From assembly GCA_036679545.1 (NCBI GenBank), contig JAZDDD010000758.1:1-33156 (forward strand): a stretch of DNA of 33,156 nt, read 5' to 3'. The position numbers and the translations under genes were made by a program. The number at the start of each line of letters is the position of its first letter. Positions within the stretch are counted from its first letter, which is position 1. This document shows positions 314-21,318 of this stretch, in pieces. Origin of the DNA: Gemmatimonadota bacterium. GTDB lineage: Bacteria > Gemmatimonadota > Gemmatimonadetes > Gemmatimonadales > GWC2-71-9. Below the pieces are notes generated by a model that ran no database searches, was not told the origin of the DNA, and was given only the letters and a program-made list of their open reading frames with translations.

Positions 314-3034
314 ATGAAAACCGTCTTTTCCTTTGGAAACGGGCGCGCTGATGGCGGTGCCCATATGGCGGACATTTTGGGTGGCAAGGGTGCAAACCTG
401 GCCGAGATGTGCAACCTGGGCATACCGGTCCCACCCGGTTTTACGATCGCCACAGGGTTGTGTGGTGAGTACCTCGAGAAACAGAAGCTTCCCGAAGGTT
501 TAGATGGTGCTGTGCGCGATGCCATGGCTCAGCTCGAGCACGCTGCCAATCGTCGATTCGGCGATGAGAACGACCCCTTGCTTGTCTCAGTGCGCTCCGG
601 TGCCAGGGTTTCAATGCCCGGCATGATGGATACAATCCTCAACCTGGGACTCAATGACCGTACCGTCAGCGGCCTAGCCACCCAATCGGACAATCCACGA
701 TTCGCATTCGACTCGTACCGGCGATTTGTCCAGATGTACGGAGAAGTCGTGTTCGGCTTGAAGGGAGACGGTCATCACCCGGATCCCCTGGAACATGCAT
801 TAACCAAGGCAAAAGAACGACGCGGTGTGTCACGCGATATCGATTTAGAAGCTCACGACCTGCGGGACCTGGTTGCTGAGTTCAAAGAGATTATCAGAAC
901 GGACACCGGCGCGACCTTTCCCGACGACCCGTGGGATCAATTATGGGGTGCGGTGGAAGCAGTTTTCAAAAGTTGGCAGACCAAACGTGCAGTGAATTAC
1001 CGGCGCGTGCACGAAATACCAAACGATATCGGCACCGCCGTAAACATCGTGGCCATGGTGTATGGCAACATGGGCGAAGACTGCGGAACTGGGGTGGCTT
1101 TCACGAGGGACCCCTCGACCGGTGTGGCCAATTTGTTTGGTGAGTTCCTCACGAATGCGCAGGGTGAGGACGTGGTCGCCGGCAGGCGGGACCCGGAACC
1201 AATTGCCGCCATGGCAGACCGTCTGCCTGATGCTTATCGCGCGCTCGAAGACACCTGCACAAAGCTGGAGGACCACTTTAGGGACGCGCAGGATGTGGAA
1301 TTCACCGTCCAAAAGGGCCAGTTGTACATGCTGCAAACACGGACCGCCAAGCGCACGGCCCGCGCGGCTGTGCGCATTGCGGTAGAGATGGTGGCAGAGT
1401 CACGGATCGACCAGCGCGAAGCGTTGAGACGTGTCCAACCGGAGCAGCTCGACCAGCTGCTCCACCCCACGATTGACCCGCAGGCCACCTTGGACATCTT
1501 GGCCGTCGGATTACCGGCTTCGCCCGGAGCGGCCGTCGGTATGGTGGTTTTTGATGCGGACACGGCACAGACACGGTCGGAGGACGGAGACCCGGTCATT
1601 CTGGTTCGGCGCGAGACCAGCCCGGACGATTTTCATGGCATGGTCGCCGCAGAGGCCATCTTGACCCAGCGGGGAGGGATGACAAGCCACGCGGCCGTCG
1701 TGGCGCGAGGAATGGGTACACCGTGCGTGGCGGGATGTAAGGAAATCGACGTTCGAGGAAGTGAAAAACGTTTCCTCGTCGGTGAGAGCGAGTTCCGCGA
1801 AGGTGATTGGATCACGCTGGACGGTTCCACAGGCCGTGTCATTCGGGGCAAGGTACCTCTGGTAGAATCAAGCCTCGACGAAAATTTCGATCAGATTATG
1901 GCTTGGTCCGACCAGGTGCGAATGCTTCGCGTTCGTGCCAATGCGGACAATGCTGCAGACGCCGAGCGAGCGCGAAAATTCGGCGCAGAGGGTATAGGAC
2001 TCTGCCGCACCGAACACATGTTTTTCGACGGGGAACGCATCACGGCAATGCGTGAGATGATCCTCGCATCCGATCTCGAAGGCAGACGGAAGGCGCTTCG
2101 CAAACTGCTACCGATGCAACGCGGGGACTTCCGCGAAATGTTCGAGGTCATGGACGGACTTCCCGTCACCATTCGACTCCTCGATCCGCCACTCCATGAG
2201 TTCTTGCCCCACGACGATAGCGAATTGATCCCCCTCGCCAAGAGCCTAGGTGTGCCATTGGATCGGCTCCGGCACACAGTGTCGGTTTTGACAGAAACCA
2301 ACCCCATGCTTGGACATCGGGGGTGTCGACTCGGTATCACGTATCCCGAGATCACTGAGATGCAGGCGTGGGCCATAATTGAAGCGGCATGCGAGGCCGC
2401 CAGTGCCGGAATATCCGTGTTTCCGGAGATCATGATCCCACTCATTGCTACGGCGGAGGAACTGCGTCGCCAAGTGGCCGTGGTGCGCGACGTTGCCGAG
2501 CGGGTGTTCGCCGAACGTGATCAGCGCATAGAATATTTGGTCGGGACAATGATTGAATTACCGCGAGCCGCATTGACCGCGGATGAGATCGCCGAGGTCG
2601 CAGAATTTTTCTCGTTCGGCACGAACGATTTGACGCAGACGACGTTCGGGTTGTCGCGTGACGACGCTGGTCGATTCCTACCTACGTATGTGGAATCGGG
2701 CATCTTACCGGCGGATCCATTCCAGACACTTGATCGCGGCGGCGTCGGACGACTGGTTGGTGTGGGTGTGGGGCTCGGTCGGGAGCGGAATCCCAAGCTC
2801 AAGATTGGCATTTGCGGAGAACATGGCGGTGACCCAGAATCGATAAAGTTCTGTCATCACATCGGGCTCAACTACGTTTCGTGTTCTCCCTTTCGTATTC
2901 CGATTGCGCGATTGGCGGCTGCACACGCCGCCCTTGTAGAATCGGAGAAGGTGTGTAATTTACCAAAGAGGAATGACGTTGATGCAAACGGAAGTGTAGC
3001 GTCAATCCAACAGTCGGCGGTTGCCGGCGCGTAG
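314..3034 (+). CDS. ppdK: Pyruvate, phosphate dikinase
   Basis: 906-aa ORF with PPDK hallmarks: N-terminal LGGKGANLAEM, TRTAKRT, phospho-His loop GGMTSHAAVVARGMG, and PEP-utilising C-domain motifs CRTEHMFF and FFSFGTNDLTQ. Confidence 0.95.
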   Translation: MKTVFSFGNGRADGGAHMADILGGKGANLAEMCNLGIPVPPGFTIATGLCGEYLEKQKLPEGLDGAVRDAMAQLEHAANRRFGDENDPLLVSVRSGARVSMPGMMDTILNLGLNDRTVSGLATQSDNPRFAFDSYRRFVQMYGEVVFGLKGDGHHPDPLEHALTKAKERRGVSRDIDLEAHDLRDLVAEFKEIIRTDTGATFPDDPWDQLWGAVEAVFKSWQTKRAVNYRRVHEIPNDIGTAVNIVAMVYGNMGEDCGTGVAFTRDPSTGVANLFGEFLTNAQGEDVVAGRRDPEPIAAMADRLPDAYRALEDTCTKLEDHFRDAQDVEFTVQKGQLYMLQTRTAKRTARAAVRIAVEMVAESRIDQREALRRVQPEQLDQLLHPTIDPQATLDILAVGLPASPGAAVGMVVFDADTAQTRSEDGDPVILVRRETSPDDFHGMVAAEAILTQRGGMTSHAAVVARGMGTPCVAGCKEIDVRGSEKRFLVGESEFREGDWITLDGSTGRVIRGKVPLVESSLDENFDQIMAWSDQVRMLRVRANADNAADAERARKFGAEGIGLCRTEHMFFDGERITAMREMILASDLEGRRKALRKLLPMQRGDFREMFEVMDGLPVTIRLLDPPLHEFLPHDDSELIPLAKSLGVPLDRLRHTVSVLTETNPMLGHRGCRLGITYPEITEMQAWAIIEAACEAASAGISVFPEIMIPLIATAEELRRQVAVVRDVAERVFAERDQRIEYLVGTMIELPRAALTADEIAEVAEFFSFGTNDLTQTTFGLSRDDAGRFLPTYVESGILPADPFQTLDRGGVGRLVGVGVGLGRERNPKLKIGICGEHGGDPESIKFCHHIGLNYVSCSPFRIPIARLAAAHAALVESEKVCNLPKRNDVDANGSVASIQQSAVAGA

Positions 3035-3059
3035 ATTTTTGGTGGTAGACAAACGCGTT

Positions 3060-3064
3060 AGGAG
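3060..3064 (+). promoter_or_regulatory. Shine-Dalgarno (AGGAG) for the small precursor ORF
   Basis: AGGAG lies 5 nt upstream of ATG 3070. This is the strongest SD I see in the accessory region. Confidence 0.6.
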
Positions 3065-3069
3065 AAATC

Positions 3070-3180
3070 ATGCAAGGACTGAAAAAACCATTCGTTAAGC
3101 CGACTGTCAAAGAGCAAGCTTCGCTGATCGACGTCACGCTGCAGACTGGCGGTGGTGGCGACGGTGGCGAAACACTCTAA
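3070..3180 (+). CDS. Putative RiPP precursor peptide (36 aa) with a lasso-type leader and a Gly-rich acidic core
   Basis: ATG..TAA reads MQGLKKPFVKPTVKEQASLIDVTLQTGGGGDGGETL. The ORF is below the ORF-track size cutoff. It has a strong SD and sits directly upstream of PqqD-like (RRE) and B2-protease genes. FxxPxV...Tx matches the spacing of the lasso leader motif YxxPxLxxxGxxxxxTx if cleavage follows Leu24. Confidence 0.6.
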   Translation: MQGLKKPFVKPTVKEQASLIDVTLQTGGGGDGGETL

Positions 3181-3201
3181 CATTTAGATTGTAACCACCA
3201 A

Positions 3202-3241
3202 AGCGTGCCAGGGGCGTCAAAGACCCTGGCACGCTTTTTTG
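3202..3241 (+). terminator. Rho-independent terminator/attenuator after the precursor ORF
   Basis: Perfect 12-bp stem AGCGTGCCAGGG (3202-3213) / CCCTGGCACGCT (3224-3235), a 10-nt loop, then a T-run (3235-3240). Confidence 0.8.
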
Positions 3242-3251
3242 CACCTAACTC

Positions 3252-4172
3252 TTGTCTATCACCCGATTTCAAGTCAACGCGGATGACGCACGCATCCGTC
3301 AAACCGTCCAATCATGGTTGGACGGCTTGCGGCTTGAATTGCCCGCGCCCATCACGCTTGACATAACGCGGGGGTTCGTTCCCTCTCCGATCGAAGCAGG
3401 CAGGACAATCTTCGAACAACCGGCCGTTACGATTTCGCACGGTCCACCGTCGTATGATTTGCGTGTCGCGTGGCGTCTTGCACCGGCGTGCGCAACCTTA
3501 CCAAAAGATTCGACGCAAATTCACATCGCCATCTCCGATAGCGGCGCTCAGCGGCTCGATGATTTCCTGAACACATTTCTTATTACGGTGATCATTCTGT
3601 CCTTGCGTCGGGTTGGATGGCACCATGTCCACGCTGCATCGGCTGAAGATCCGTCGGGGAGGGGATGGCTGATCGCAGGAGACGCGCGGGCTGGAAAGTC
3701 CACAACGGCGGCCCTCATGGCCAGCCGGGGTTGGCGCGTGGGTTCAGATGACACGACGTTTCTGGCGCGTGACAACGGGGCATTTTGCGCATGGAGCACG
3801 AGACAACCGTTGGCGCTCCGGCGGGGCGGACACACCCTTTTGGGTGACAACCAGTTCAAACGGAACACGCGAAGGAATAAATTCGTATGTTGGCCGGAAC
3901 AACTCGGTGGCAGCTGGACCAACCGCATCGTACCAGACATCATCTTGTTCTCAAAACCGGGAGCGCGCGTCACGACATGCGAACCCATCAAACCAATTGA
4001 GGCTCTGGCGGAACTTGTCCGTTGGTCGGCTTGGGTGATGCTCGAACCCGACTTGGCCCAAAACCATCTGGATCTGTTGAATACTATCGCACAACGCACC
4101 ACAAGCTACCGGGCGCAACTCGGCAGCGATCTTTTTCAAGATCCAACCCGGTTGTCAGCGATTCTGCCATGA
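3252..4172 (+). CDS. HPr kinase/phosphorylase-like (HprK C-domain-like) putative RiPP kinase
   Basis: 306-aa ORF. LIAGDARAGKSTTAALMASRGWRVGSDD matches the HprK P-loop block (G.SG.GKSE.AL.L..RGH.L.ADD). The start is TTG 3252, right after an in-frame TAA with no obvious SD; in-frame TTGs at 3318, 3327 and 3339 are alternatives. The stop overlaps the next start (ATGA). Confidence 0.75.
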   Translation: MSITRFQVNADDARIRQTVQSWLDGLRLELPAPITLDITRGFVPSPIEAGRTIFEQPAVTISHGPPSYDLRVAWRLAPACATLPKDSTQIHIAISDSGAQRLDDFLNTFLITVIILSLRRVGWHHVHAASAEDPSGRGWLIAGDARAGKSTTAALMASRGWRVGSDDTTFLARDNGAFCAWSTRQPLALRRGGHTLLGDNQFKRNTRRNKFVCWPEQLGGSWTNRIVPDIILFSKPGARVTTCEPIKPIEALAELVRWSAWVMLEPDLAQNHLDLLNTIAQRTTSYRAQLGSDLFQDPTRLSAILP

Positions 4173-4444
4173 CCGCTACCTACGTTTGCAGCCCGGACAT
4201 TCGAATAACCGAATTGGATGGCGAAGGCATTGTGCTCCATCTGGCAAACCGTCGTTACTTCACGGTGAGTAGCAGTGGCCTTTTAATACTGAGCGCGTTG
4301 AAGACACAACAAACATTTGACCACGTGGTCGATATCTTGTTGGGGACGTATGACGTAAACCGGGAAGAGGCGTCGGAAACCGCGACCACCTTCCTCGCCG
4401 AATGTGCGGCGCATGGGATGGTGGTTGTAGAGAAACACCCGTGA
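4169..4444 (+). CDS. PqqD-family RiPP recognition element protein (lasso B1-like)
   Basis: 91 aa: MTATYVCSPDIRITELDGEGIVLHLANRRYFTVSSSGLLILSALKTQQTFDHVVDILLGTYDVNREEASETATTFLAECAAHGMVVVEKHP. Size and pattern fit PqqD/RRE (..e.vl......yf.ln..g..i...l....t...iv..l...y.v....a..d...Fl..l...g.v). ATG 4169 overlaps the kinase stop (ATGA). I replaced the track's longer 4022 start. Confidence 0.75.
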   Translation: MTATYVCSPDIRITELDGEGIVLHLANRRYFTVSSSGLLILSALKTQQTFDHVVDILLGTYDVNREEASETATTFLAECAAHGMVVVEKHP

Positions 4445-4899
4445 CCGCGCTACCACTCGGCTGGCGGTGTCGAGCGGCGGTGGCCTGCCTGGTTGTCCCG
4501 ATCATGGTCAACAGCATCTCCTTCGCGACCGTCGTGCGACGGCTAGCGCAACGGCCCTCAAAACGTTTTGTACGATTCGACGATGAAGACTTGGCAGGAT
4601 GGGTCACCACGTTCCTCCATCGTCTGCCAGATCCGTGGTATCCCACGTGTCTTCGCCGCGCGGCCGTCTTATACCACCTCCTCAACCGCGCCGGTCGTGA
4701 CGTACGCATGTACCTCGGCGTACAACGGCCGGACACCGGTGAGATCGACGCTCATGCGTGGCTCGTCCTGAACGATGAACCCTATCTGGAGCCTTCCACT
4801 ACAGATCCCAGCCAGTACAAAGTCATCGCTCGCTTTCCCGAGGAGTCACCGGAGGATGGCGACGAACGAGAGGCAACCCTCAAGCCAAAGGGAGTTTGA
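4441..4899 (+). CDS. Transglutaminase-like cysteine protease (lasso leader peptidase B2-like)
   Basis: 152 aa from GTG 4441, which overlaps the PqqD stop (GTGA). Candidate Cys-His-Asp arrangement: YPTCLRRAAVLYHLL ... IDAHAWLVLNDEPY, as in lasso B/B2 proteins. Confidence 0.75.
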   Translation: MTALPLGWRCRAAVACLVVPIMVNSISFATVVRRLAQRPSKRFVRFDDEDLAGWVTTFLHRLPDPWYPTCLRRAAVLYHLLNRAGRDVRMYLGVQRPDTGEIDAHAWLVLNDEPYLEPSTTDPSQYKVIARFPEESPEDGDEREATLKPKGV

Positions 4900-4903
4900 T
4901 ATC

Positions 4904-5999
4904 GTGGTGCCGGTCCATACGGCACAACTTCTACTCGACACCCTTCGGCTTCCCGGGGTGTCCCACTCAGCCTCACTTTGCACAAGATGGGAGCGTGCAG
5001 ATACACGCGGTGTGACGGACCTCGTCAAACGCGAAGGCGGCGAACTTTGGTTGCACCGTCGCTTGAAACAAATCGGGATCCGTGAAACACGGTTGGTACG
5101 CACGGAGTTTTGGGACTCATTGGATCGCTCCGCCAAGAAAAGCGTAGCACAGAACCTACTCGTTCGCAGCCACGCCGAATACGTCAGGGGCCTGTTCGTG
5201 CGGGATGGCGTGCCGCACGCGCCGATCAAGGGCATCGCACGTCAAGCATGCACTCCCCAAATTCCCGTTTGCCAATTGCCGCGCTACGCGCGACGTGGAT
5301 ATTCTCGTACCATCTGACGCCACTGACGCCGCCTGGGAATGCCTAACATCACATGGATACCGGAAGTCAAGCGAGCTTACACCCACTGGGCATTTTCATC
5401 TCCCCCCGCTGGCAAACAACGAGAACATCGCCGTAGAGATACACAAGTCTACATCATCGTCCGTGTCACCCGATGAGGCGTGGCGACGTGCTCAGCATAT
5501 CGATGACCCGACCGAGTTACTCTGGCAGGGTGTTACGCACGCCTTGGATCAAGGGTTGGAAGGGTTCTTTCTTCGGTACTATCTGGATGCCGCAGTCGCC
5601 TTAACGCACGGCGACATTTCTTGGGAGGTCGTCGTGGAGAGGCTGCGGTCCGTTGAAATCCGCGACTATTCCCTGGCCGTCACCTGGTTGCTCGCAGCCA
5701 ATTGTTTTACGACAACGGACATCTCCAACACCATTGAACTACCGCAGCGAGATTTTCCTCTACTCCGGACCAGCACGTGGCGACTGACAGCCTATAGGTC
5801 GCGTTTCCGCAATAAGTCATGGACCCGCAAACTTCTCGCCGAGGGCTTGCGATCGGAATTGGACATGGGACTTGAAGGCCCGGTCCCGTCCACGCCCTTC
5901 GTGCACAAAGTCCGAAGAACCACGTCTGCGGTTGCAGCGCGATTGACATACCGCACATGGAGACGTCTTCGCTGGACGGATGACGCGGACTCAGCCTAG
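4904..5999 (+). pseudogene. NTP_transf_5-type nucleotidyltransferase family protein, interrupted by a 1-nt frameshift near 5246-5261
   Basis: Two track ORFs (4775-5317 and 5205-5999) are halves of one protein. Frame A ends ...FVRDGVPHAPIKGIARQA. Frame B continues ...LPKFPFANCRATRDVDILVPSDATDAAWECLTSHGY, the KG...R..D.D.LV....a...L...GY core of this family. The joined length is about 364 aa. The likely start is GTG 4904, with GGAG 9 nt upstream and 4 nt after the B2 stop. ATG 4856 is an alternative. Confidence 0.6.
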
Positions 6000-13418: not shown

Positions 13419-14749
13419 ACGTTATCCCGTGCCCCAACCACTTCACGTACCCAGTTGCGGTTGTTTCCGTTAGCAAAAAGTTCAACGATTTTGTCGAGAG
13501 TGATCCGTTGTTCCTCACCCGTCGTGAGATTGCGCACAACGCCCAGCTCGTTCTCGCGCTCCTCCGGCCCAATGATGACGGCCGCTGTAGCCTGCCGCGC
13601 ATTGGCGATTTTCATCTGTTTCCCGATGGATTGCGGTTTAAGGGCATACTCCACGCGCGCTCCCCGATCACGCAGACTGTGTGCCAACGATAGCACCGTC
13701 CGGATCTCGCCTCCCGTGACTGCCACGAGAAACATGTCCAAACCGCCAGCTCCGTCTGCTGTCCAACCATGTTCCTTCAACAGTTCGCCGAGAACGACGT
13801 CACCCATGCCAAATCCAACGGCGGGTAGATCGACACCACCCAACGCGTTCAACAACCCATCATACCTTCCACCCCCGCAAATGGCGCGGAGAGACCGGCG
13901 GGCATCGAAAAGCTCGAACACGATGCCGGTGTAATAGTCCAGTCCACGAACTATTGACAGATCCACATCGACAAAGTCCCTCAACCCCATCGACGCGAGG
14001 GCGTCCAGACATTGAAACAAGTTATCTGACGCGGCCTCTTTGTCGGCGGCGGACAACGCTTCGCGAAGAGCGGCTTCTCCCTTGATCCCACCGATTTCCA
14101 GCACCTGCTGCGCGACAACTTGCTCGAGCCCCCCCTGGACCAGGAAGGCGAGCAGCTTGTCCGGTGTTTCTCGCTCCGACTTGTCCACCGCCCGGTATGC
14201 CAACTCTAACTGAGCCGCCTGAACGCCATTGGCAAGCAACAAGGCCTGGATCACACGTCGATCCGACATGCGGACCCGTACGTCCTTGGGTCCAAGGCCA
14301 AGCGTTCTCATGATGTCTATGGCGGCCGCTATCACCTCTGCGTCCGCAGCAGCCCCTACTTCTCCTATCACATCCATGTTCAACTGGAAGTGCTCTCGGA
14401 GACGCCCACGCTGTTGCTTCTCGAACCTGAACAGCTGTGGAGTCGAGAACCATCGGATGGGCTTTTTCAGCTCGGTGGCCCTCGCGGTGACCATCCGGGC
14501 CAGCGTTGGGGTCATCTCGGGACGTAACGTGACTGCCCGGTCACCCTTGTCCACGAAATTGTAGAGCTGATCGACGATCTCAGGACCCGACTTTTGGGTG
14601 TAAAGCTCGAGGGGCTCCAGGGGCGGACCGTCATATTCCTGAAACCCGTATCGCGCGGCTACGTCCCGCCACGCGCCAAAGATCGCGTTCTTGAGAGCAA
14701 TCTTCTCTGCGTCAAAGTCTCGAAATCCCGGCAACCCCCGTGTTTTCAT
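13415..14749 (-). CDS. hisS: Histidine--tRNA ligase
   Basis: 444 aa. GFRDF, LRPEMTP, FRFEKQQRGRLREHFQ and GGGRYD are HisRS signature blocks. Confidence 0.95.
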   Translation of the reverse strand: MKTRGLPGFRDFDAEKIALKNAIFGAWRDVAARYGFQEYDGPPLEPLELYTQKSGPEIVDQLYNFVDKGDRAVTLRPEMTPTLARMVTARATELKKPIRWFSTPQLFRFEKQQRGRLREHFQLNMDVIGEVGAAADAEVIAAAIDIMRTLGLGPKDVRVRMSDRRVIQALLLANGVQAAQLELAYRAVDKSERETPDKLLAFLVQGGLEQVVAQQVLEIGGIKGEAALREALSAADKEAASDNLFQCLDALASMGLRDFVDVDLSIVRGLDYYTGIVFELFDARRSLRAICGGGRYDGLLNALGGVDLPAVGFGMGDVVLGELLKEHGWTADGAGGLDMFLVAVTGGEIRTVLSLAHSLRDRGARVEYALKPQSIGKQMKIANARQATAAVIIGPEERENELGVVRNLTTGEEQRITLDKIVELFANGNNRNWVREVVGARDNV

Positions 14750-14758
14750 CGAAAGAAT

Positions 14759-15895
14759 CTATCCGAACGGCACGAAGCCGGGCAACCGCGCCATGGCATC
14801 CCCCACCGTGTAGAAAGAGCCGGTCACTACCACCGTGCCTGCTCCCACCTCCGCATCGCGCAGCGCCCGGTCAAAACGGGGCTCCACGAGGATGTCCTCA
14901 GAGACTGCTCCGGCCAGCTGGTGCGGTTGTACCGCCCTTTCCGACGGGGCGGACGGCGGTACCGTCACCCAGATCCGGTCCGCGACCGCCGCCACAGATT
15001 TGAGCAGTGCCGCGACCGGTTTGTCGTTCAGCGCTCCAAAAACCACGTGGATCGGCCGCGGTGGCCCAGAATCCCTAATAAGGGCCGTCAGAGCCCCCAT
15101 GCTCGCCTCATTGTGAGCGACGTCCAATATCCACTTGCCTCGCCAATCGAACCGGCCGGGCACCGATGCGCGGGCGAATCCACGCGCCACGTCCCCCGCG
15201 GACACCTCAAAAACGGCTGGCAACACATTGAGGACCTCCGCCGCCACGGCAGCATTACGACGTTGATGGGCGCCAGCCAGGGCCATGGCCCCTTCGTACC
15301 GCACGCCCCGCTGAACCGTACACGGCACACCGCCGAGACCCTCGGCCCGTTGCAACAACGCGTGGCACAGCGTCTGGTTCTCCTCACCGATAACGAATGG
15401 GATACCGGTTTTTGCAATAGACGCTTTTTCCCACGCGACCCGTTCGAGATCGGTTCCGAGGAACTCTTCATGGTCGTTCCCAACATTCGTCACAGCCGTG
15501 ACGACAGGATCGACGACGTTGGTGCTGTCTAGTCTACCGCCGAGTCCCACCTCCACGACGGCGATATCAACGTGTCGCGCCGCAAAGTCCGCAAACGCAA
15601 TCGCGGTGATTGCTTCAAAGTGACTGGCGCCTGTGGCCTCTATCTCAGAGTGTAGCGCATTGGTCCACGCCGCAAACGCATCCTTGGAAATGGGCTTACC
15701 ATTCACGACCACCCGTTCGGTTGCATCCACGAGATGAGGCGAGGTATAGAGACCGACTCGAAACCCCGCGCCGCGTAGCGTCTCGTACACTAACGTTGCC
15801 ACCGACCCCTTGCCGTTCGTGCCGCCGATGTGAACAATGGCATATCTGTCTTGTGGATTTCCCATCGCCGCAAGGAGTCGGCGTGTGGGCCCCAA
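14759..15895 (-). CDS. folC: Folylpolyglutamate synthase / dihydrofolate synthase (5' end uncertain, see findings)
   Basis: Mur-ligase P-loop HIGGTNGKGS is present. The track start is TTG 15895, but FolC-like sequence (SYQQACSYLFPRLGGGRRWSL) continues in frame upstream. Confidence 0.85.
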   Translation of the reverse strand: MGPTRRLLAAMGNPQDRYAIVHIGGTNGKGSVATLVYETLRGAGFRVGLYTSPHLVDATERVVVNGKPISKDAFAAWTNALHSEIEATGASHFEAITAIAFADFAARHVDIAVVEVGLGGRLDSTNVVDPVVTAVTNVGNDHEEFLGTDLERVAWEKASIAKTGIPFVIGEENQTLCHALLQRAEGLGGVPCTVQRGVRYEGAMALAGAHQRRNAAVAAEVLNVLPAVFEVSAGDVARGFARASVPGRFDWRGKWILDVAHNEASMGALTALIRDSGPPRPIHVVFGALNDKPVAALLKSVAAVADRIWVTVPPSAPSERAVQPHQLAGAVSEDILVEPRFDRALRDAEVGAGTVVVTGSFYTVGDAMARLPGFVPFG

Positions 15896-15969
15896 GGACC
15901 AACGCCGGCCACCGCCGAGCCGCGGAAAAAGGTACGAACAGGCTTGTTGATATGAAAACCCGTGAATGG

Positions 15970-16803
15970 TCAGTGCCCTAGCATCATGCGCAATAACCTG
16001 CCGGTAACATCTTGCAGTTCTGCACGCCGTACGACCAGGTCAATCATTCCGTGGTCCACGAGAAACTCCGCCGTCTGAAAACCTTCGGGTAGGTCTTGCC
16101 CAATTGTCTGTTTGATCACACGAGCACCGGCAAATCCGATCACCGCACCAGGTTCAGCGATGTGGACATCGCCTTGCATGGCGAATGATGCCGATACTCC
16201 ACCGGTCGTTGGATCGGTCAAGACCGAAATGTATGGTATACCCCTGCGCGCAAGCTGCGAAATAACCACCGATGTCTTGGCAAGTTGCATCAAACTGAGG
16301 ACACCTTCTTGCATCCGCGCACCGCCGGAACGCGATACGAGTATGAGGGGCGTTTCCTCTTTTACCGATCGTTGTCCGAGTCGTGCGATTTTCTCTCCTA
16401 CGACGGATCCCATGGAACCACCCATGAAATCGAACTCCATTACGCCGAGACTGACATCAAGGCCCTTCAGTTTTCCGTATCCCGTCAAAACCGCTTCGCC
16501 ACCATTGTTCTTTCGGTCGGCTCTCGCCAAGCGGTCCGCGTACCCATCGAAATTCAGCGGATTGACCGAACGCAAGTCCGCATCGGTTTCTTCGAACGTC
16601 CCGTCGTCGATGAAGACCTTTACGTACTCAGCTGCAGGGATGCGCCGATGAAAGTCGCATTCGGGACACACTTCGAGCGTTTTCTGGAACCGCTCGCGGA
16701 GATCCACATGACCACACTTCGTACACTTGTCCCAGGCGTCAGCTGGAATCTCCAGCTTGTTCCGGGACGGCCGTTTCTTGCCTTCTTTTCTAAACCAGGC
16801 CAT
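15970..16803 (-). CDS. accD: Acetyl-CoA carboxylase carboxyltransferase beta subunit
   Basis: MAWFRK start (ATG 16803; the track uses TTG 16809). Zn-ribbon CTKCGH...CPECDF; carboxyltransferase blocks GGSMGS and GGARMQEG. Confidence 0.9.
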   Translation of the reverse strand: MAWFRKEGKKRPSRNKLEIPADAWDKCTKCGHVDLRERFQKTLEVCPECDFHRRIPAAEYVKVFIDDGTFEETDADLRSVNPLNFDGYADRLARADRKNNGGEAVLTGYGKLKGLDVSLGVMEFDFMGGSMGSVVGEKIARLGQRSVKEETPLILVSRSGGARMQEGVLSLMQLAKTSVVISQLARRGIPYISVLTDPTTGGVSASFAMQGDVHIAEPGAVIGFAGARVIKQTIGQDLPEGFQTAEFLVDHGMIDLVVRRAELQDVTGRLLRMMLGH

Positions 16804-16883
16804 GCACAAAATTTCCGGTGAGAGATATGGTCCTGACCACGTAAAAAACGGGTGTCAAATGTGACTGGGTTGGGCAGACCCCG

Positions 16884-18134
16884 CTAGCCCTCCGCGTACC
16901 CGCCATAGCGCGTCTCCCAGGCCGTTCGGAACGCGAGCGCCATGCTCAACAAGCAGATCATCGCAAACGACCCACCGTATGAGAAAAATGGAAGCGGAAT
17001 ACCCGTGACGGGAAGCAAACCAATCGTCATGCCGGTGTTCTCCACGATGTGGACGAACAGCATCCCGATGATGCCGGCGACCATGAGGCTAGAAAATGCG
17101 TCAATCGAAGTCCGAGCGATCCGCAGCAGCACGATCAGCAACACCCCGAACAACGTGAGGGTCACCGCAACGCCAGCAAAACCGAACTCCTCACCAACGA
17201 TGGAGAACACGAAATCTGTATGTTGCGCCGGGAGGAACGCCAATCGTTTTTGCGCTCCCTCCAAGAAGCCATTGCCCAAAAGGCCACCCGACCCGATCGC
17301 AACCTTGGATTGGATCACGTTCCAACCCGCCGCTTGTGGATCGACCTCCGGATTGAGAAATGACAGGATGCGGTTCTTTTGATAGTCGGCAAGACGATTC
17401 CACAGACCGAAAGCAAATACGCCCATGGCAACGTTGCCAAACCATATGAACGCCCCTTCCCGCACGTATGGGCGCATCCAAACGAGCAAAATCGTCATTA
17501 CGACGATCCACGCGCCCCAGAGTCCGGTCGAAAACGCCAGGAAGAGACTGATGACCGGGGACGCGAGCAAAAGCAACAATCGCAAGCTGACACCTACCCA
17601 ATAGAGCATCACAAAGAGGATGCCGATCAACACAACCGCGCTGCCCAAATCCGGTTGCAATCCGATGAGAACGAATGGTGCCAACACGATCATCACCGAC
17701 GGTATCAGGTCAAAAAATGTCTTTGGCGCATCTTTGCGGGATCCGAGATACCGTGCCAACATTAACGCGGTCGCGAGCTTCGCAAGTTCCGCCGGTTGTC
17801 CTATGCGAATACTTCCGACACTCAACCACGACTTGGCACCCGCTGCGGTACCCGCGCCCGTGCCCGCGAACAACGTAGCGATCAGTAAGATGATTGTTGC
17901 GATGTAAAGGTAAGGCGCCAACCATTCTACGACACGCGGCGACACGCGAAAGAGCATCGCCGCCACAAACGTCCCAAGGACAAGCCACACCAGTTGGCGC
18001 ACCCACATATTCGCCGCAATCGTGGGGAAGTCGGCTTGGCCAGCGGAGTACAATATCGCAATTCCCGGGAGGATCAACGCCAGGATTGCAATGAGTAACG
18101 CGCGGTCAAGACGCCGGTCATCCATCGTGCTCAA
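16884..18134 (-). CDS. rodA: Rod shape-determining protein RodA (SEDS family)
   Basis: 416-aa polytopic membrane protein of FtsW/RodA type (LPVTGIPLPFFSYGGS), immediately downstream of PBP2. TTG 18134 overlaps the mrdA stop; ATG 18125 is an alternative. Confidence 0.9.
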   Translation of the reverse strand: MSTMDDRRLDRALLIAILALILPGIAILYSAGQADFPTIAANMWVRQLVWLVLGTFVAAMLFRVSPRVVEWLAPYLYIATIILLIATLFAGTGAGTAAGAKSWLSVGSIRIGQPAELAKLATALMLARYLGSRKDAPKTFFDLIPSVMIVLAPFVLIGLQPDLGSAVVLIGILFVMLYWVGVSLRLLLLLASPVISLFLAFSTGLWGAWIVVMTILLVWMRPYVREGAFIWFGNVAMGVFAFGLWNRLADYQKNRILSFLNPEVDPQAAGWNVIQSKVAIGSGGLLGNGFLEGAQKRLAFLPAQHTDFVFSIVGEEFGFAGVAVTLTLFGVLLIVLLRIARTSIDAFSSLMVAGIIGMLFVHIVENTGMTIGLLPVTGIPLPFFSYGGSFAMICLLSMALAFRTAWETRYGGYAEG

Positions 18135-19975
18135 CCGCCAATGAGGACCGAGTCGGCAAGTGGAAGCGGTTGCGGTGCAGAGTCGGCCGGGACTAACAAT
18201 CGAATAGAACGGTCAAGTGTTTCATCGGCACCGAACAAATGACGTGCAATCACATTTGTTACGATCGGTGCAACATCCGATCCGTGCTCCGCGAACTCCA
18301 CAATGGCGCCGACGACGATTTCCGGTGCTTCCGCCGGTGCAAAAGCAATGAACCATCCATGGTTGGGGCCGTGGGAATTTTGCGCCGTTCCGGTCTTGCC
18401 GGCAATGCGCAAATTGGCAATACGCGAACGGACCGCGGTTCCCTGCTCCACCACCATCACCAGCGCTTCGCGAAGTTCGTCAATCTGTGTGGGATCGAGT
18501 CGAAGCCCCGAAGCCGGGCGATATTCGACCGGCTCGCTCAACACAAATCGCGGTGTCGGCGCGACGCCGTCATCGTTGGCCAACGCCGCATAAAACCGAA
18601 TCATGTTAAGCAATGTTTGATCGTTTTCACCCTGCCCAATCGCCAAGTTCAGGGTTACCGCTCGCGTCCATCCACGAGGCCCGTACGTCTGGTCGTAGTA
18701 ACTTGTCGTTGCTGGAAAAAACGACTGGACCTCGTTGGGCAAATCGACGCCGGTGAGTCCAGAAAATCCTAACTGGGTGCCGTCCTCCAACAAATTTTGC
18801 AAACCGATTTTTAACCCGAGCTGATAGAAGTACACGTCGCACGAGTGTTGAATTGCCTCGGCAAGCGTCAAGGATCCGTGACCCTCCGTACGCCAACATC
18901 TAAAGTATCGAGTGAAATACGGCATGCCACCGTGACACGGAGTCGTCATCCGCGTATCCATCGTGACGATACCCCGACGCAACGCCATGGTCGCGACGGC
19001 GAGTTTCCAGGGCGACGCGGGTGGGTACCGACCCTGGACCGCTCGATTGAGGAGCGGATTGTCCGCGGAGTTACGAATCTGATCCCACAGGCCGACATCA
19101 ATACCGCCGACGAACGCGTTTGGATCAAATGACGGCGCGGAATACATTGCCAGAACGTCTCCGTTGCGGGGATCCATGGCCACAACGGCCCCGCGAGCCT
19201 CGGCTGGGAATTGCGACTGCACGAAAGACTGAAGGTCCAGATCTAATGTGGTCCGCACGGTCTTTCCCTGCACCGGTGGCGACGGCGCAAGCACTCCCTC
19301 CTGTCGCACCGTTCGTCCGAACGCATCGACCTCGACATGGCGCCGACCGTCGCTCCCACGCAAGAGAGAATCATACTCTCGCTCGAGACCCGACCGGCCC
19401 ACCACTGTCCCGTACCGTGCGCCGGCAACGCTACCGCCCTCCAACTCTTGTTGGGTAATCTCGTTTACGTATCCCAACGAATGGGCGAAGATATCTCCGT
19501 GGGGATAGTGGCGTTTCGGTTCAGCCTGAATGGTCAGACCTTGCAACGCAACACGCCGCTCTTCCAACGCACTGACAACCTCGAAGGACGCATCCCGCAT
19601 AATGACAACTGGGTCGTCGATCCGCGCACGGGGTCGGTCGAGAATGGCTGCGACCTGGCCTACATCAAGACCGATGAGGTCCGCGATGAGACCCATCGTC
19701 GATGTTAGGGAATCCCGGCTCGACCCTATCAACGATATCGTGTAACCGGGAACGTTGTCGGCAAGTATGCTACCGTGTCGATCAACGATAAGACCACGCG
19801 GAGCAGGTAAGATGGAAGGTCGAATACGGTTTTGATCCGATTGAAATAGATATCGGTCTCGCCCCATGACCTGCAGACGAAAGAACCCGAGGCCAATCGC
19901 CCCCAATGCGAACGCGATAAACCAACTACCCAGCGTGGCCCGACGTCCAATTGCGTGGGGATGATTCCATCTCAT
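18131..19975 (-). CDS. mrdA: Penicillin-binding protein 2 (elongasome transpeptidase)
   Basis: 614 aa with an N-terminal TM segment, SxxK (ASPWK), SxD (SCD) and KTGT motifs, in mreBCD-mrdA-rodA synteny. Confidence 0.9.
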   Translation of the reverse strand: MRWNHPHAIGRRATLGSWFIAFALGAIGLGFFRLQVMGRDRYLFQSDQNRIRPSILPAPRGLIVDRHGSILADNVPGYTISLIGSSRDSLTSTMGLIADLIGLDVGQVAAILDRPRARIDDPVVIMRDASFEVVSALEERRVALQGLTIQAEPKRHYPHGDIFAHSLGYVNEITQQELEGGSVAGARYGTVVGRSGLEREYDSLLRGSDGRRHVEVDAFGRTVRQEGVLAPSPPVQGKTVRTTLDLDLQSFVQSQFPAEARGAVVAMDPRNGDVLAMYSAPSFDPNAFVGGIDVGLWDQIRNSADNPLLNRAVQGRYPPASPWKLAVATMALRRGIVTMDTRMTTPCHGGMPYFTRYFRCWRTEGHGSLTLAEAIQHSCDVYFYQLGLKIGLQNLLEDGTQLGFSGLTGVDLPNEVQSFFPATTSYYDQTYGPRGWTRAVTLNLAIGQGENDQTLLNMIRFYAALANDDGVAPTPRFVLSEPVEYRPASGLRLDPTQIDELREALVMVVEQGTAVRSRIANLRIAGKTGTAQNSHGPNHGWFIAFAPAEAPEIVVGAIVEFAEHGSDVAPIVTNVIARHLFGADETLDRSIRLLVPADSAPQPLPLADSVLIGG

Positions 19976-19990
19976 CGAACGATCATCCTT

Positions 19991-20485
19991 TCAATTGTTG
20001 CCAACCCGCAACCAACCACGAAACATGCTCATGAGAATCACACCCGTAGCGGTCGTGGTCGCTGCGAGTACAATTGACCATGTACCCAATTGCCACAATA
20101 ACTCCCGCCCCATGGTCCCACGGCTCGCCAGCAGCATCAGGAGGTCTCTTACCCAAACTCCGGCGAACAAGAAACCCGCGTTCACGACGAAATTATCGGG
20201 GAAGAAAACGTCCTTCCCCCAAGCCTGAAGATAACCAACGACCGTGTGTGCGAGTGCTCCGGCGCCAAACGCAATCTGAGAGAGCGCATCTCCCACGATC
20301 CCAACACCGAACCCCGCGATGGCAGCGCGGCCAGGTCGCACCCTGATGGCATACATCATGAGCGCCAGCATCAGAAAATCCGGTGCCCATCGGGGGTTCC
20401 CTAACCAGGGGCGTACAACAAAATGCATCAGTACGAGCGCCCCGAGGATAATCCAAAGTCGATAGGGTTTGGCGTTTGGGATCAT
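19991..20485 (-). CDS. mreD: Rod shape-determining protein MreD
   Basis: 164-aa multi-TM protein between mreC and mrdA. The ATGA overlap with mreC fits. The call rests mainly on synteny and hydrophobicity. Confidence 0.75.
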   Translation of the reverse strand: MIPNAKPYRLWIILGALVLMHFVVRPWLGNPRWAPDFLMLALMMYAIRVRPGRAAIAGFGVGIVGDALSQIAFGAGALAHTVVGYLQAWGKDVFFPDNFVVNAGFLFAGVWVRDLLMLLASRGTMGRELLWQLGTWSIVLAATTTATGVILMSMFRGWLRVGNN

Positions 20486-21318
20486 CGACCGGCGCTAGAA
20501 AAAACCCGTTCGACATCCACACCGACGGTGAGGATGATAAGAACATGGGAAAGGGTGGTGAGTCGAACCGCCGGTTCGATCAAATAGGTCTTGGTGAATC
20601 CGGTTTGTTCTCCGATCAACTGACGAACGATGCCAACCGGAATACCACGTGGATACACTCCACCGAGTCCGGACGTCACGATGGAGTCCCCGGATGCCAC
20701 CTCGACAAAATAAGGAACCTCTCTCAGTTCCAAGAACGTGGTAGCACCGTCGGCGACACGCGGCGCGACGATGCCACTCACGCGTCCATCTCGCGTCGAC
20801 GCGCTTGCTCGAAAGTATGGATGGGTCCACGTGTGAACAATAGACGTCCTCGCATCCACCGTTTGCACGTGCCCGACTAAACCGGCGCCGGTTACCACGG
20901 GAGCCCACTGCCGCACACTGTCACGCGCACCAGCGGTAACGATGAGCGTGTTGGACTCATCGGGTTGGACTTGATGTAGCGTTTCCGCTGGGACATGACG
21001 AATGTTCATGCGGGACCGGAGCCGCATCACCGTCCGAAACCGTTCGTTTTCGGCACGCACAGTCTCCAACTCATTGGCGCGCAGAACGGCAGAATCACGT
21101 TCAGCCACGACGCGCTCGAATTCCGTCCTACGTCCTCGCACTAATTCCGTCTGTTCCTGAAGGGCAAGGAATGGTGCGAGGACGGTACGTCTCATGGCCG
21201 ACGCTATGCTATTGCTGACGTTTTCGGGTATCGCTCGCGCACCAACCGCGAGGACCAAGCAGATGATAAAGGCGACAGTGTCTCTACGCGAGGCGTACGA
21301 ATCCGATCCAAAGTCCAC
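20482..21318 (-). CDS. mreC: Rod shape-determining protein MreC
   Basis: 278 aa with an N-terminal TM, a coiled-coil region (ELVRGRRTEFERVVAERD...ENERFR), a beta-rich C-domain (TSGLGGVYPRGIPVG), and matching synteny. Confidence 0.85.
   Translation of the reverse strand: MDFGSDSYASRRDTVAFIICLVLAVGARAIPENVSNSIASAMRRTVLAPFLALQEQTELVRGRRTEFERVVAERDSAVLRANELETVRAENERFRTVMRLRSRMNIRHVPAETLHQVQPDESNTLIVTAGARDSVRQWAPVVTGAGLVGHVQTVDARTSIVHTWTHPYFRASASTRDGRVSGIVAPRVADGATTFLELREVPYFVEVASGDSIVTSGLGGVYPRGIPVGIVRQLIGEQTGFTKTYLIEPAVRLTTLSHVLIILTVGVDVERVFSSAGR

What the first reader, a model, noticed from the sequence alone, without database searches (positions are those of the whole stretch)
3070..3180. Uncalled 36-aa precursor: exact lasso leader spacing but an atypical Gln-initiated, Gly-rich, plug-less core
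The sequence is MQGLKKPFVKPTVKEQASLIDVTL / QTGGGGDGGETL. If cleavage follows Leu24, then Phe8, Pro11, Val13, Ala17 and Thr23 fall at -17, -14, -12, -8 and -2. This is the spacing of the lasso leader motif YxxPxLxxxGxxxxxTx, in which Tyr/Pro/Leu are read by the B1 RRE and Thr-2 by B2, with conservative substitutions. The predicted 12-aa core differs from known lasso cores in several ways. It starts with Gln rather than Gly/Ala/Ser/Cys, and 6 of its 12 residues are Gly. Asp sits at core position 7 and Glu at position 10. Only 5 residues follow Asp7, and none is bulky enough to act as a steric plug. An exposed N-terminal Gln would be prone to pyroglutamate formation. The C-terminus is Thr-Leu, not the C-terminal Ser targeted by known lasso kinases. 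The hydroxyl acceptors in the core are Thr26 and Thr35.
Basis: partly seen in the sequence, partly recalled or inferred. Interest (0 to 1): 0.75.

Follow-up and report, generated by a model that had tools for sequence, protein, structure and literature searches.

The report
Precursor of cyclase-less lasso-like peptide
The 36-codon ORF is a real, strongly conserved gene for the precursor of a modified peptide. Its leader and two of its processing enzymes are of the lasso-peptide type, but the gene set has no ring-forming enzyme, so the product is most likely a short linear, probably phosphorylated, peptide from a large undescribed family found in Gemmatimonadota.

Summary
ORF 3070..3180 encodes MQGLKKPFVKPTVKEQASLIDVTL/QTGGGGDGGETL, with a Shine-Dalgarno site and a strong terminator hairpin. 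It lies directly upstream of an operon for an HprK-like kinase (K), a PqqD recognition protein (B1), a lasso-type Cys protease (B2) and an NTP_transf_5 nucleotidyltransferase (N).

It is a real gene. dN/dS is 0.04-0.08 against two relatives. One to three homologous peptide genes precede K in 47 of the 61 sequences compared, mostly Gemmatimonadota MAGs. At least 482 peptide clusters exist in public data, all named "hypothetical".

The leader is near-invariant: F/Y-17, P-14, L/V/I-12, A-8, L-6, T-2 and L-1. The core is hypervariable.

The lasso reading fails on three counts:
- No Asn-synthetase-like cyclase was found in the window or near any locus.
- 37/60 and 53/120 family cores have no Asp or Glu at all.

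Ser/Thr at core position 2 is universal (57/60, 120/120). The anchor spacing F-P-L-L-T-x-x-S/T is identical to the motif of the Bacillota Linear Polyphosphorylated Peptides, whose kinase phosphorylates that Ser.

Best reading: a B2-processed, LPP-like linear phosphopeptide with Thr26 as acceptor. This is a new variant of a known kind.

The parts
3061..3065 (+). Shine-Dalgarno AGGAG, 5 nt before the ATG
   Evidence: Read. AGGAG is invariant in the alignment with the syntenic relatives L001, L002 and L005.
3070..3141 (+). Leader region of the precursor (Met1-Leu24): MQGLKKPFVKPTVKEQASLIDVTL
   Evidence: Family consensus [KR]KPFVxPxLxEEASLxxVTL. T-2, L-1 and L-6 are invariant; F/Y-17 60/60; P-14 56/60.
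3142..3177 (+). Predicted core QTGGGGDGGETL, assuming B2 cleaves after Thr23-Leu24. Thr26 (3145-3147) is the family-wide conserved Ser/Thr. The stop codon is 3178-3180.
   Evidence: Core position 2 is S/T in 57/60 and 120/120; position 3 is Gly in 42/60 and 113/120; the rest is hypervariable. The boundary is inferred, not shown.
3200..3240 (+). Intrinsic-terminator-like hairpin (14-bp stem plus U6) between the precursor gene and the enzyme genes. It probably sets the precursor-to-enzyme transcript ratio.
   Evidence: -28.6 kcal/mol, z -5.3. The stem arms are conserved and the loop differs in L001. The consensus scan missed it.
3252..4172 (+). K: HprK/PEPCK-fold P-loop kinase-like protein, 306 aa. 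P-loop G143-T152 is at about 3678-3707; Asp166-Asp167 is at 3747-3752.
   Evidence: pLDDT 91. Foldseek hits to PEPCK and HprK/P at E about 1e-5. GxxxxGKSTT and DD are conserved in at least 95% of 51 homologues.
4169..4444 (+). B1: discrete PqqD-type RiPP recognition element, 91 aa. Its ATG overlaps the K stop codon (ATGA).
   Evidence: PF05402, 37.2 bits against a cutoff of 23.4; best NCBIfam matches are the lasso PqqD models, below their cutoffs; best PDB matches are TbiB1 (5v1u) and a lasso PqqD chaperone (9x90).
4441..4899 (+). B2: lasso-type transglutaminase-like Cys protease, 152 aa from the GTG that overlaps the B1 stop codon. Cys70 is at 4648-4650 and His105 at 4753-4755.
   Evidence: PF13471. 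NF033537 lasso_biosyn_B2, 51.9 bits against a cutoff of 33. TCL and AHAWL motifs conserved in at least 95% of 47 homologues.
4904..5999 (+). N: NTP_transf_5 nucleotidyltransferase. In this window it is split by a +1 frameshift in the C4 run at 5255-5258 (frame 2 for 4904..5317, frame 3 for 5205..5999). The DxD motif is at 5292-5300.
   Evidence: PF14907 on the 3' part; intact at about 368-374 aa in L006 and L001. D134xD136 conserved.

Best explanation
ORF 3070..3180 is the translated precursor (A) of a five-gene A-K-B1-B2-N module that is conserved across Gemmatimonadota.

Proposed mechanism:
1. The discrete RRE B1 binds the leader through Phe8, Pro11 and Val13.
2. B1 presents the leader to the Cys protease B2. 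B2 cuts after Thr23-Leu24 (lasso rule, Thr at -2) and releases QTGGGGDGGETL.
3. The HprK-like kinase K, probably acting on the leader-bound precursor, phosphorylates the conserved hydroxyl three residues after the invariant Thr. That residue is Thr26, core position 2. Phosphorylation may be repeated.
4. The nucleotidyltransferase N may then add a further group, such as a hexose, to the phosphate.

Because there is no macrolactam synthetase, the product stays linear. The terminator hairpin after the A gene keeps the precursor transcript in excess over the enzyme transcripts.

Shown here: the gene is real and under purifying selection; the module and the conserved-leader, variable-core pattern; absence of a cyclase near the module; conserved catalytic residues in K, B2 and N.

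Inferred: the cleavage site, the phospho-acceptor, the role of N, and the biological function.
For: Gene reality:
- dN/dS 0.044-0.059 for the window against L006 and L001.
- Shine-Dalgarno site and terminator.
- The homologous 36-aa ORF is called in the syntenic loci L001-L005.

Module:
- The order K-B1-B2-N holds in nearly all of the 61 sequences compared, and the flanking genes differ between genomes.

Precursor family:
- 60 unique peptides from the loci and 120 listed from 482 database clusters. The leader is near-invariant and the core hypervariable.

Not a lasso:
- No PF00733-type ORF in the window.
- The only SGGxDS PP-loop ORF found, in the three sequences where it appears (window, L001, L006), is GuaA.
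- None among the ten most recurrent large neighbouring ORFs, or in four Pfam-annotated contexts.
- 37/60 and 53/120 cores have no Asp or Glu.

Kinase:
- Confident model (pLDDT 91) with PEPCK/HprK fold.
- P-loop and DD pair conserved. The DD pair aligns with the ADD of L. casei HprK/P. [quoted passage not shown]

Acceptor site:
- S/T at core position 2 in 57/60 and 120/120.
- The family anchors F1-P4-L6-L12-T16-S/T19 have the same spacing as the LPP precursor consensus YxxPxVLxHQxIxFETxxS. In LPPs that Ser (core S3) is the sole site of LppK polyphosphorylation (PMC13381572).
- In the window's subfamily no other hydroxyl is conserved: Thr35 is Glu in L001.

B2:
- Passes the NCBIfam lasso B2 cutoff. 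Cys and His are conserved.
- Thr at -2 is the known B2 recognition element (abstract of PMC10368454).

N:
- PF14907 with a conserved DxD.
- A DxD mutant of PsmN loses the hexose addition to phosphorylated pseudomycoidin.
Against: - There is no biochemical evidence for any step.
- LppK did not accept Ser3->Thr. The window's peptide has Thr at that site, as do 6/60 and 8/120 family members.
- 84/120 of the listed database peptides end in Ser, the site used by paeninodin-type kinases. K may therefore target the C-terminus in most members, and the window's peptide ends in Leu.
- K scores far below every curated kinase-family cutoff: TIGR04249 23.9 against 125, TIGR04352 22.4 against 200.
- In this window N is frameshifted, so the full pathway may not run in this organism.
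- Leu-1 is invariant, unlike the -1 position in lasso leaders as I recall them. The true boundary could therefore be after Thr23, as in LPPs.
- No exporter is adjacent in the window.
- A cyclase encoded elsewhere in the genome could not be excluded directly.
Confidence: 0.6

Rival explanations
1. True lasso peptide. The precursor is cleaved by B1/B2 and then cyclised (Gln1 to Asp7 or Glu10) by an Asn-synthetase-like cyclase encoded elsewhere in the genome.
For: The leader spacing, B1 and B2 are all of lasso type. The window's core does have Asp at position 7. K and N are known lasso tailoring enzymes.
Against: - No cyclase in the window or near the related loci examined.
- Asp7 is Gly in the closest distinct relative.
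- 37/60 and 53/120 family cores have no acidic residue. Position 1 is Ile or Val in most. Four cores are only 6 aa long.
- The window's core has no bulky residue after Asp7 to act as a plug.
Confidence: 0.04
2. A matured linear peptide with different chemistry. K phosphorylates the C-terminal Ser/Thr, as in paeninodin-type systems, or another substrate. The conserved [ST]-G-G after the cleavage site would then be a B2 or N recognition element rather than the phospho-acceptor. In the window's subfamily, which ends in Leu, the peptide would be only cleaved, or modified at Thr35.
For: C-terminal Ser in 84/120 and 19/60 peptides. Known lasso kinases are specific for the C-terminal Ser. LppK rejects Thr at its site.
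Against: The C-terminal hydroxyl is not universal, whereas K is. Thr35 is not conserved within the subfamily. The T-x-x-S/T spacing equals that of LPP precursors, where that Ser is the proven site.
Confidence: 0.22
3. A decaying or incomplete cluster in this particular organism. The N frameshift is real, so only a partly modified or non-functional product is made here.
For: One extra C in the run at 5255-5258 relative to L006 splits N. N is intact in L006 and L001.
Against: A, K and B1 are intact and conserved against L006 (K 98%, B1 100% amino-acid identity), and B2 is intact at 87%. A second frameshift splits an unrelated Ser/Thr protein kinase gene at about 27730-27758. That points to indel errors in the assembly rather than specific decay. 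This rival is compatible with the main explanation for the family.
Confidence: 0.12
4. Not a RiPP precursor. The ORF is a chance ORF, or a regulatory leader peptide or attenuator for the downstream operon.
For: The lasso motif alone is expected 0.5 times per window by chance. A terminator follows the ORF.
Against: dN/dS is about 0.05. At least 482 homologous peptide clusters show the conserved-leader, hypervariable-core pattern, with 1-3 tandem copies per locus. Loci that lack B1/B2 also lack the peptide.
Confidence: 0.02

Closest known systems
Linear Polyphosphorylated Peptides (LPPs) of Bacillota (Popov et al., Nat Commun 2026, PMC13381572)
   Same: [quoted passage not shown]
- One to three precursors with a conserved N-terminal region and a hypervariable C-terminus.
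- Identical spacing of the leader anchors and of the hydroxyl three residues after the conserved Thr. The LPP consensus is YxxPxVLxHQxIxFETxxS; here it is FVxPxLxEEASLxxVTLx[ST].
   Different: - The leader peptidase here is the lasso B2 Cys protease, not the SpI-like serine peptidase LppS that defines LPP clusters.
- No MsbA-like exporter in the window. One is present after N in L007.
- Phe replaces Tyr in the RRE motif.
- The acceptor is Thr in the window.
- A Gly-rich stretch follows the acceptor.
- The host phylum is Gemmatimonadota, whereas LPPs are described as restricted to Bacillota.
- Nothing here has been shown biochemically.
Phosphorylated or phosphoglycosylated lasso peptides (paeninodin, pseudomycoidin; PMC6993621, PMC8498205)
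   Same: They share the A, K (HprK-like), B1, B2 and N gene types, and a leader with an aromatic-xx-Pro RRE motif and Thr at -2.
   Different: Those clusters have a macrolactam synthetase C and an ABC exporter D. Their kinase targets a C-terminal Ser, and their cores have an Asp/Glu ring acceptor. Here there is no C, the window's peptide ends in Leu, and most family cores lack an acceptor.
NCBIfam HprK-related families (SynChlorMet ScmC TIGR04249; HprK-related kinase A TIGR04352)
   Same: K gives its best, though weak, curated matches to these HprK-like proteins. From memory, they accompany PqqD-like proteins in peptide-modification cassettes. Precomputed Pfam lists PF27840 (ScmC) for K homologues; it is unmarked and flagged 'faint'.
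   Different: Scores are far below the cutoffs: 23.9 against 125 and 22.4 against 200. There is no radical-SAM partner here. K is not a member of either family.

Membership tests
Lasso peptide | Leader with the RRE-binding motif [Y/W]xxPx[L/V/I...] and Thr at -2 | tested here: met
   Phe8, Pro11, Val13 and Thr23 have the exact spacing. Family-wide: F/Y 60/60, P 56/60, L/V/I 60/60, T-2 180/180. Phe stands in place of the usual Tyr or Trp.
Lasso peptide | Discrete or fused PqqD-type RRE (B1) | tested here: met
   PF05402 at 37.2 bits against a cutoff of 23.4. The best NCBIfam hits are the lasso PqqD models, but below cutoff (39.8 against 80). Best PDB hit is TbiB1.
Lasso peptide | B2 transglutaminase-like Cys leader peptidase | tested here: met
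   NF033537 at 51.9 bits against a cutoff of 33. PF13471. Cys70 and His105 are conserved in at least 95% of 47 homologues.
Lasso peptide | Asn-synthetase-like macrolactam synthetase (C, PF00733) in the cluster | tested here: not met
   Absent from all large ORFs of the window. Absent from four Pfam-annotated contexts. The only SGGxDS ORF in the 61 sequences compared is GuaA. Absent from the ten most recurrent large neighbours. A distant genomic location was not testable.
Lasso peptide | Core with a small N-terminal residue (G/A/S/C) and Asp/Glu at position 7-9 as ring acceptor | tested here: not met
   The window has Gln1 and Asp7, but Asp7 is Gly in L001. In the family, position 1 is G/A/S/C in 4/60. 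D/E at positions 7-9 occurs in 11/60 and 33/120. No D/E at all in 37/60 and 53/120.
Lasso peptide | Threaded tail with bulky plug residues | tested here: not met
   The five residues after Asp7 are GGETL. Four family cores are only 6 aa long. Topology itself cannot be tested in silico.
Linear Polyphosphorylated Peptides (LPP) | SpI-like (SipW-type) serine leader peptidase LppS | tested here: not met
   No signal-peptidase-like gene in the module. The peptidase slot is filled by B2.
Linear Polyphosphorylated Peptides (LPP) | HprK-like kinase, discrete RRE and NTP transferase, without a macrolactam cyclase | tested here: met
   K has the HprK/PEPCK fold, the P-loop and the DD pair. B1 is PF05402. 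N is PF14907, intact in relatives and frameshifted in the window. No cyclase was found (see above).
Linear Polyphosphorylated Peptides (LPP) | Precursor motif YxxPxVLxHQxIxFETxxS, with the Ser three residues after the conserved Thr | tested here: inconclusive
   The spacing of all six anchors matches: F1, P4, L6, L12, T16 and S/T19. The intervening residues differ, the window has Thr rather than Ser, and no profile-to-profile test against LPP precursors was possible.
Linear Polyphosphorylated Peptides (LPP) | MsbA-like exporter in the core gene set | tested here: not met
   None is adjacent in the window; the next gene is an epimerase on the opposite strand. An ABC_membrane plus ABC_tran gene follows N in L007.
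Linear Polyphosphorylated Peptides (LPP) | K-dependent (poly)phosphorylation of the leader-proximal Ser | not testable with these tools
   This needs expression and mass spectrometry.
Paeninodin-type phosphorylated lasso peptides | C-terminal Ser as kinase acceptor | tested here: not met
   The window's peptide ends in Thr-Leu. 84/120 and 19/60 family members do end in Ser.

The most novel reading that the evidence does not exclude
Gemmatimonadota carry a large, undescribed RiPP class of at least 482 precursor clusters. In it the lasso leader, B1 and B2 have been retained without the cyclase. They deliver a hypervariable linear peptide, often with a His/Gly-rich tail, to an HprK-like kinase that phosphorylates the invariant Ser/Thr two residues after the cleavage site. 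The kinase would find this site by its fixed distance from the leader's Thr.

This would be a B2-dependent counterpart of the SpI-dependent LPPs of Bacillota. It would show that cyclase-less, phosphorylated linear peptides arose from lasso machinery more than once, or that they represent an intermediate state between the two classes.
Probability: 0.5. Interest if true: 0.7.

Novelty: new variant of a known kind. Interest (0 to 1): 0.62.

Why it matters
Lasso B1/B2 genes are usually read as markers of lasso peptides. Here the same leader-recognition and cleavage machinery serves a gene set that cannot make a lasso, and it does so across a whole, poorly cultured phylum. If confirmed, three things follow.

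- The recently described linear phosphorylated RiPPs would extend beyond Bacillota, with a second type of leader peptidase.
- The shared Thr-x-x-Ser/Thr spacing gives a testable rule for how HprK-like RiPP kinases choose their site.
- At least 482 unannotated small genes, many encoding His-rich peptides, would gain an annotation.

It also warns genome miners that a perfect lasso leader is not enough to call a lasso peptide.

Tried and rejected
- The consensus terminator scan found nothing. The hairpin is nevertheless strong when folded.
- The exact-sequence lookup of the closest K homologue, P0002, was not on record.
- The 36-aa peptide alone is too short for the protein search. I replaced it with a 23-member alignment.
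- My first B1 coordinates were out of frame.
- B2 has no sequence relative in the PDB.
- K against PDB by sequence gives only marginal HprK hits. The fold search was needed.
- NCBIfam has no model for the peptide or for N.
- Literature searches for a cyclase-less B1/B2 family in Gemmatimonadota found nothing. The RRE-Finder paper and the structure-based RRE paper do not mention kinase or nucleotidyltransferase.
- Zhu et al. 2016 (PMC4919450) is not held. I took its content from a review instead.
- I considered a PQQ-, mycofactocin- or SynChlorMet-type pathway and rejected it, because there is no radical-SAM enzyme.
- I considered programmed frameshifting in N and rejected it, because N is intact in L006 and L001.

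Full report
**1. Observation**

ORF 3070..3180 (+) exists and translates to MQGLKKPFVKPTVKEQASLIDVTLQTGGGGDGGETL.
- AGGAG lies 5 nt upstream of the ATG.
- A 14-bp hairpin followed by U6 lies at 3200-3240. It folds at -28.6 kcal/mol, z = -5.3 against shuffles. The simple consensus scan missed it.
- A loosened lasso leader motif matches only this ORF in all six frames. Shuffled sequence gives 0.5 matches per window, so the motif alone proves nothing.

**2. Surroundings**

Four genes follow directly downstream on the same strand.
- 3252-4172 is a 306-aa protein with weak HPr-kinase and ScmC similarity. I call it K.
- 4169-4444 is a PqqD-family protein. I call it B1.
- 4441-4899 is a Transglut_core3 / lasso B2 protease.
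- 4904-5999 is an NTP_transf_5 nucleotidyltransferase. I call it N.

The start and stop codons of K/B1 and of B1/B2 overlap, which fits an operon.

Every other large ORF in the 33-kb window is housekeeping: PPDK, epimerase, Dus, EIIA, GuaA, LysA-like, ProS, HisS, a Mur ligase, AccD, RodA, PBP2, MreBCD, Ald, an M16 peptidase, PNPase, RseP, Dxr, CdsA, UppS and Frr. There is no Asn-synthetase-like lasso cyclase.

**3. Is the ORF a gene?**

The K protein has 293 homologues in public data.
- A syntenic relative (K 62% identical, loci L001-L005) carries a called 36-aa ORF, MQAQKKPFVKPTLKEEASLIDVTLQTGGGGGGGEEL, at the same place.
- A 91%-identical relative (L006) has MQELKK...QTGGGGDGGETL.
- Codon differences are overwhelmingly synonymous. 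dN/dS is 0.059 for window against L006 and 0.044 for window against L001.

A scan of species-representative genomes returned 51 loci, all from Gemmatimonadota MAGs. A profile of the leader then found 69 peptide ORFs in 47 of the 61 sequences compared (the window, the 51 loci and nine loci fetched by protein look-up). All are on the K strand, with one to three copies per locus. In the positional tables nearly all lie upstream of K; the L033 hit lies downstream of the module.

Of the 14 sequences without a hit, about 10 lack the upstream DNA or lack B1 and B2. A profile search of 5.8 billion proteins found 482 clusters at E <= 0.01. All named ones are "hypothetical protein" from Gemmatimonadales, and none has a Pfam domain. 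The ORF is therefore a real, conserved, unannotated gene family.

**4. Anatomy of the family**

I tabulated 60 unique peptides from the loci and 120 listed database peptides.

| Position | From loci (n = 60) | From database (n = 120) |
|---|---|---|
| Thr -2 | 60 | 120 |
| Leu -1 | 60 | 120 |
| Leu -6 | 60 | not tabulated |
| Phe/Tyr -17 | 60 | not tabulated |
| Pro -14 | 56 | not tabulated |
| Leu/Val/Ile -12 | 60 | not tabulated |
| Ala -8 | 56 | not tabulated |
| Core position 1 in G/A/S/C | 4 | 0 |
| Core position 2 Ser or Thr | 57 | 120 |
| Core position 3 Gly | 42 | 113 |
| Asp/Glu at core 7-9 | 11 | 33 |
| No Asp/Glu anywhere in core | 37 | 53 |
| C-terminal Ser | 19 | 84 |

After position 3 the sequence is hypervariable, with core lengths of 6 to 43 residues. 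Tails fall into His/Gly-rich (HGHGHGH...), basic, Asn-rich or short acidic types. Core position 1 is mostly Ile or Val.

This is the textbook RiPP pattern of a conserved leader and a variable core.

**5. Why it is not a lasso peptide**

- No cyclase was found in the window. None was in the four Pfam-annotated contexts, whose flanking genes all differ.
- None was found by a PP-loop (SGGxDS) scan of all 61 sequences, which recovers only GuaA.
- None was among the ten most recurrent large neighbouring ORFs.
- Independently of gene content, most family cores have no acidic residue that could form the isopeptide. Four cores are only 6 residues long.
- The window's Asp7 is Gly in the nearest distinct relative.
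- Gln1, and so any pyroglutamate, is a subfamily peculiarity.

**6. The enzymes look active**

- K models confidently (pLDDT 91, pTM 0.89). It matches PEP carboxykinases and HprK/P by fold at E about 1e-5.
- K's P-loop GxxxxGKSTT and Asp166-Asp167 are conserved in at least 95% of 51 homologues. The DD pair aligns with the ADD of L. casei HprK/P. [quoted passage not shown]
- B2 passes the curated lasso-B2 cutoff and keeps its Cys and His.
- N keeps a DxD motif. PsmN loses activity when its DxD is mutated.
- B1's best solved relatives are lasso RREs, TbiB1 and a lasso PqqD chaperone.

**7. Closest known system**

Popov et al. 2026 (PMC13381572) describe Linear Polyphosphorylated Peptides in Bacillota. 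Their clusters encode an HprK-like kinase, a discrete RRE, an NTP transferase, an MsbA-like exporter and an SpI-like serine peptidase, with no cyclase.

The LPP precursor consensus is YxxPxVLxHQxIxFETxxS. Cleavage is after the Thr, and the kinase polyphosphorylates only the Ser three residues later.

The Gemmatimonadota consensus FVxPxLxEEASLxxVTLx[ST] places its aromatic residue, Pro, Leu, Leu, Thr and Ser/Thr at exactly the same six positions. I therefore infer that Thr26 in the window (codon 3145-3147) is the kinase's acceptor.

The system differs from LPPs in several ways:
- its peptidase is lasso B2, so the expected cut is after Thr-Leu and the acceptor becomes core residue 2;
- most loci have no adjacent exporter;
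- Phe stands in place of Tyr;
- a Gly run follows the acceptor;
- the host phylum is different.

LPPs are described as restricted to Bacillota. I found no description of this B2-type family in the searchable literature.

**8. Caveats**

- LppK rejects Thr at its site.
- The frequent C-terminal Ser in the family recalls paeninodin-type kinases, which are specific for a C-terminal Ser. The acceptor is therefore not settled.
- Leu-1 is invariant, which from memory is unusual for lasso leaders and leaves the exact boundary open.
- In the window N is split by an extra C in the run at 5255-5258 relative to L006.
- A second frameshift splits an unrelated Ser/Thr kinase gene near 27730-27758. Assembly indel errors are thus a likely cause of both.
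- A cyclase elsewhere in the genome could not be searched for.
- The function of the product is unknown.

**9. Verdict**

The best explanation is a linear, leader-proximally phosphorylated RiPP that is LPP-like but processed by B2. This is a new variant of a known kind, and a large one.

My confidence by step:
- about 0.95 that it is a real RiPP precursor;
- about 0.9 that it is not a lasso;
- about 0.5-0.6 for the specific phosphorylation site and order of steps.

Noticed in passing
window 5255-5258 (N gene, 4904-5999): The nucleotidyltransferase gene is split by one extra C in a C4 run relative to the 91%-identical L006. It is intact at about 368-374 aa in L006 and L001.
   Followed up: yes
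window 27288-28150: A Ser/Thr protein kinase gene is also split into two frames: Pkinase profile positions 3-132 in 27288-27758, and 139-259 in 27737-28150. The shift is near the GGG/CC run at about 27730-27740. Two frameshifts in 33 kb suggest assembly indel errors.
   Followed up: partly
L012:1858-2058, L015:5500-5661, L030:5036-5194 and many database peptides (P0121-P0240): Most family cores carry His/Gly-rich tails (HGHGHGH...) that often end in -HNS or -HSS, plus a semi-conserved Pro-Thr after the Gly run. This suggests metal binding or a second modification site. The window's short acidic core belongs to a minority subfamily.
   Followed up: partly
L025:1825-4012; L022:8001-8903; L018; L033: A few loci have K followed directly by N with no B1/B2 (L025), K alone (L022), or no B2 hit (L018, L033). 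L018, L022 and L025 also lack a peptide with this leader; L033's only leader hit lies downstream of the module. L009 and L018 are two paralogous loci in one MAG.
   Followed up: partly
L019:10728-12494 (-), L058:8820-10800 (-), L007:10794-12641 (+): A homologous Wzt-type ABC ATPase (represented by L019:10728-12494, which lies just after N on the opposite strand) recurs in 8 loci, and in L058 it has a Wzm-like permease. An MsbA/lasso-D-like exporter follows N on the same strand in L007. LPP clusters of Bacilli are likewise embedded in polysaccharide loci.
   Followed up: partly
L059/L060:7131-8679 and 13826-20918: In one lineage the module is flanked by an ECF sigma factor, a Metal_resist (PF13801) protein, a CzcB/ACR_tran RND efflux pair and a two-component system. 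This may link to the His-rich cores, or may be coincidence.
   Followed up: no
window 3035-3069: Only 35 nt separate the PPDK stop codon (3034) from the precursor ATG, and no sigma-70-like promoter was found in 2800-3500. The precursor may be co-transcribed with ppdK or use a promoter inside its 3' end. The same PPDK-precursor adjacency holds in L001.
   Followed up: no
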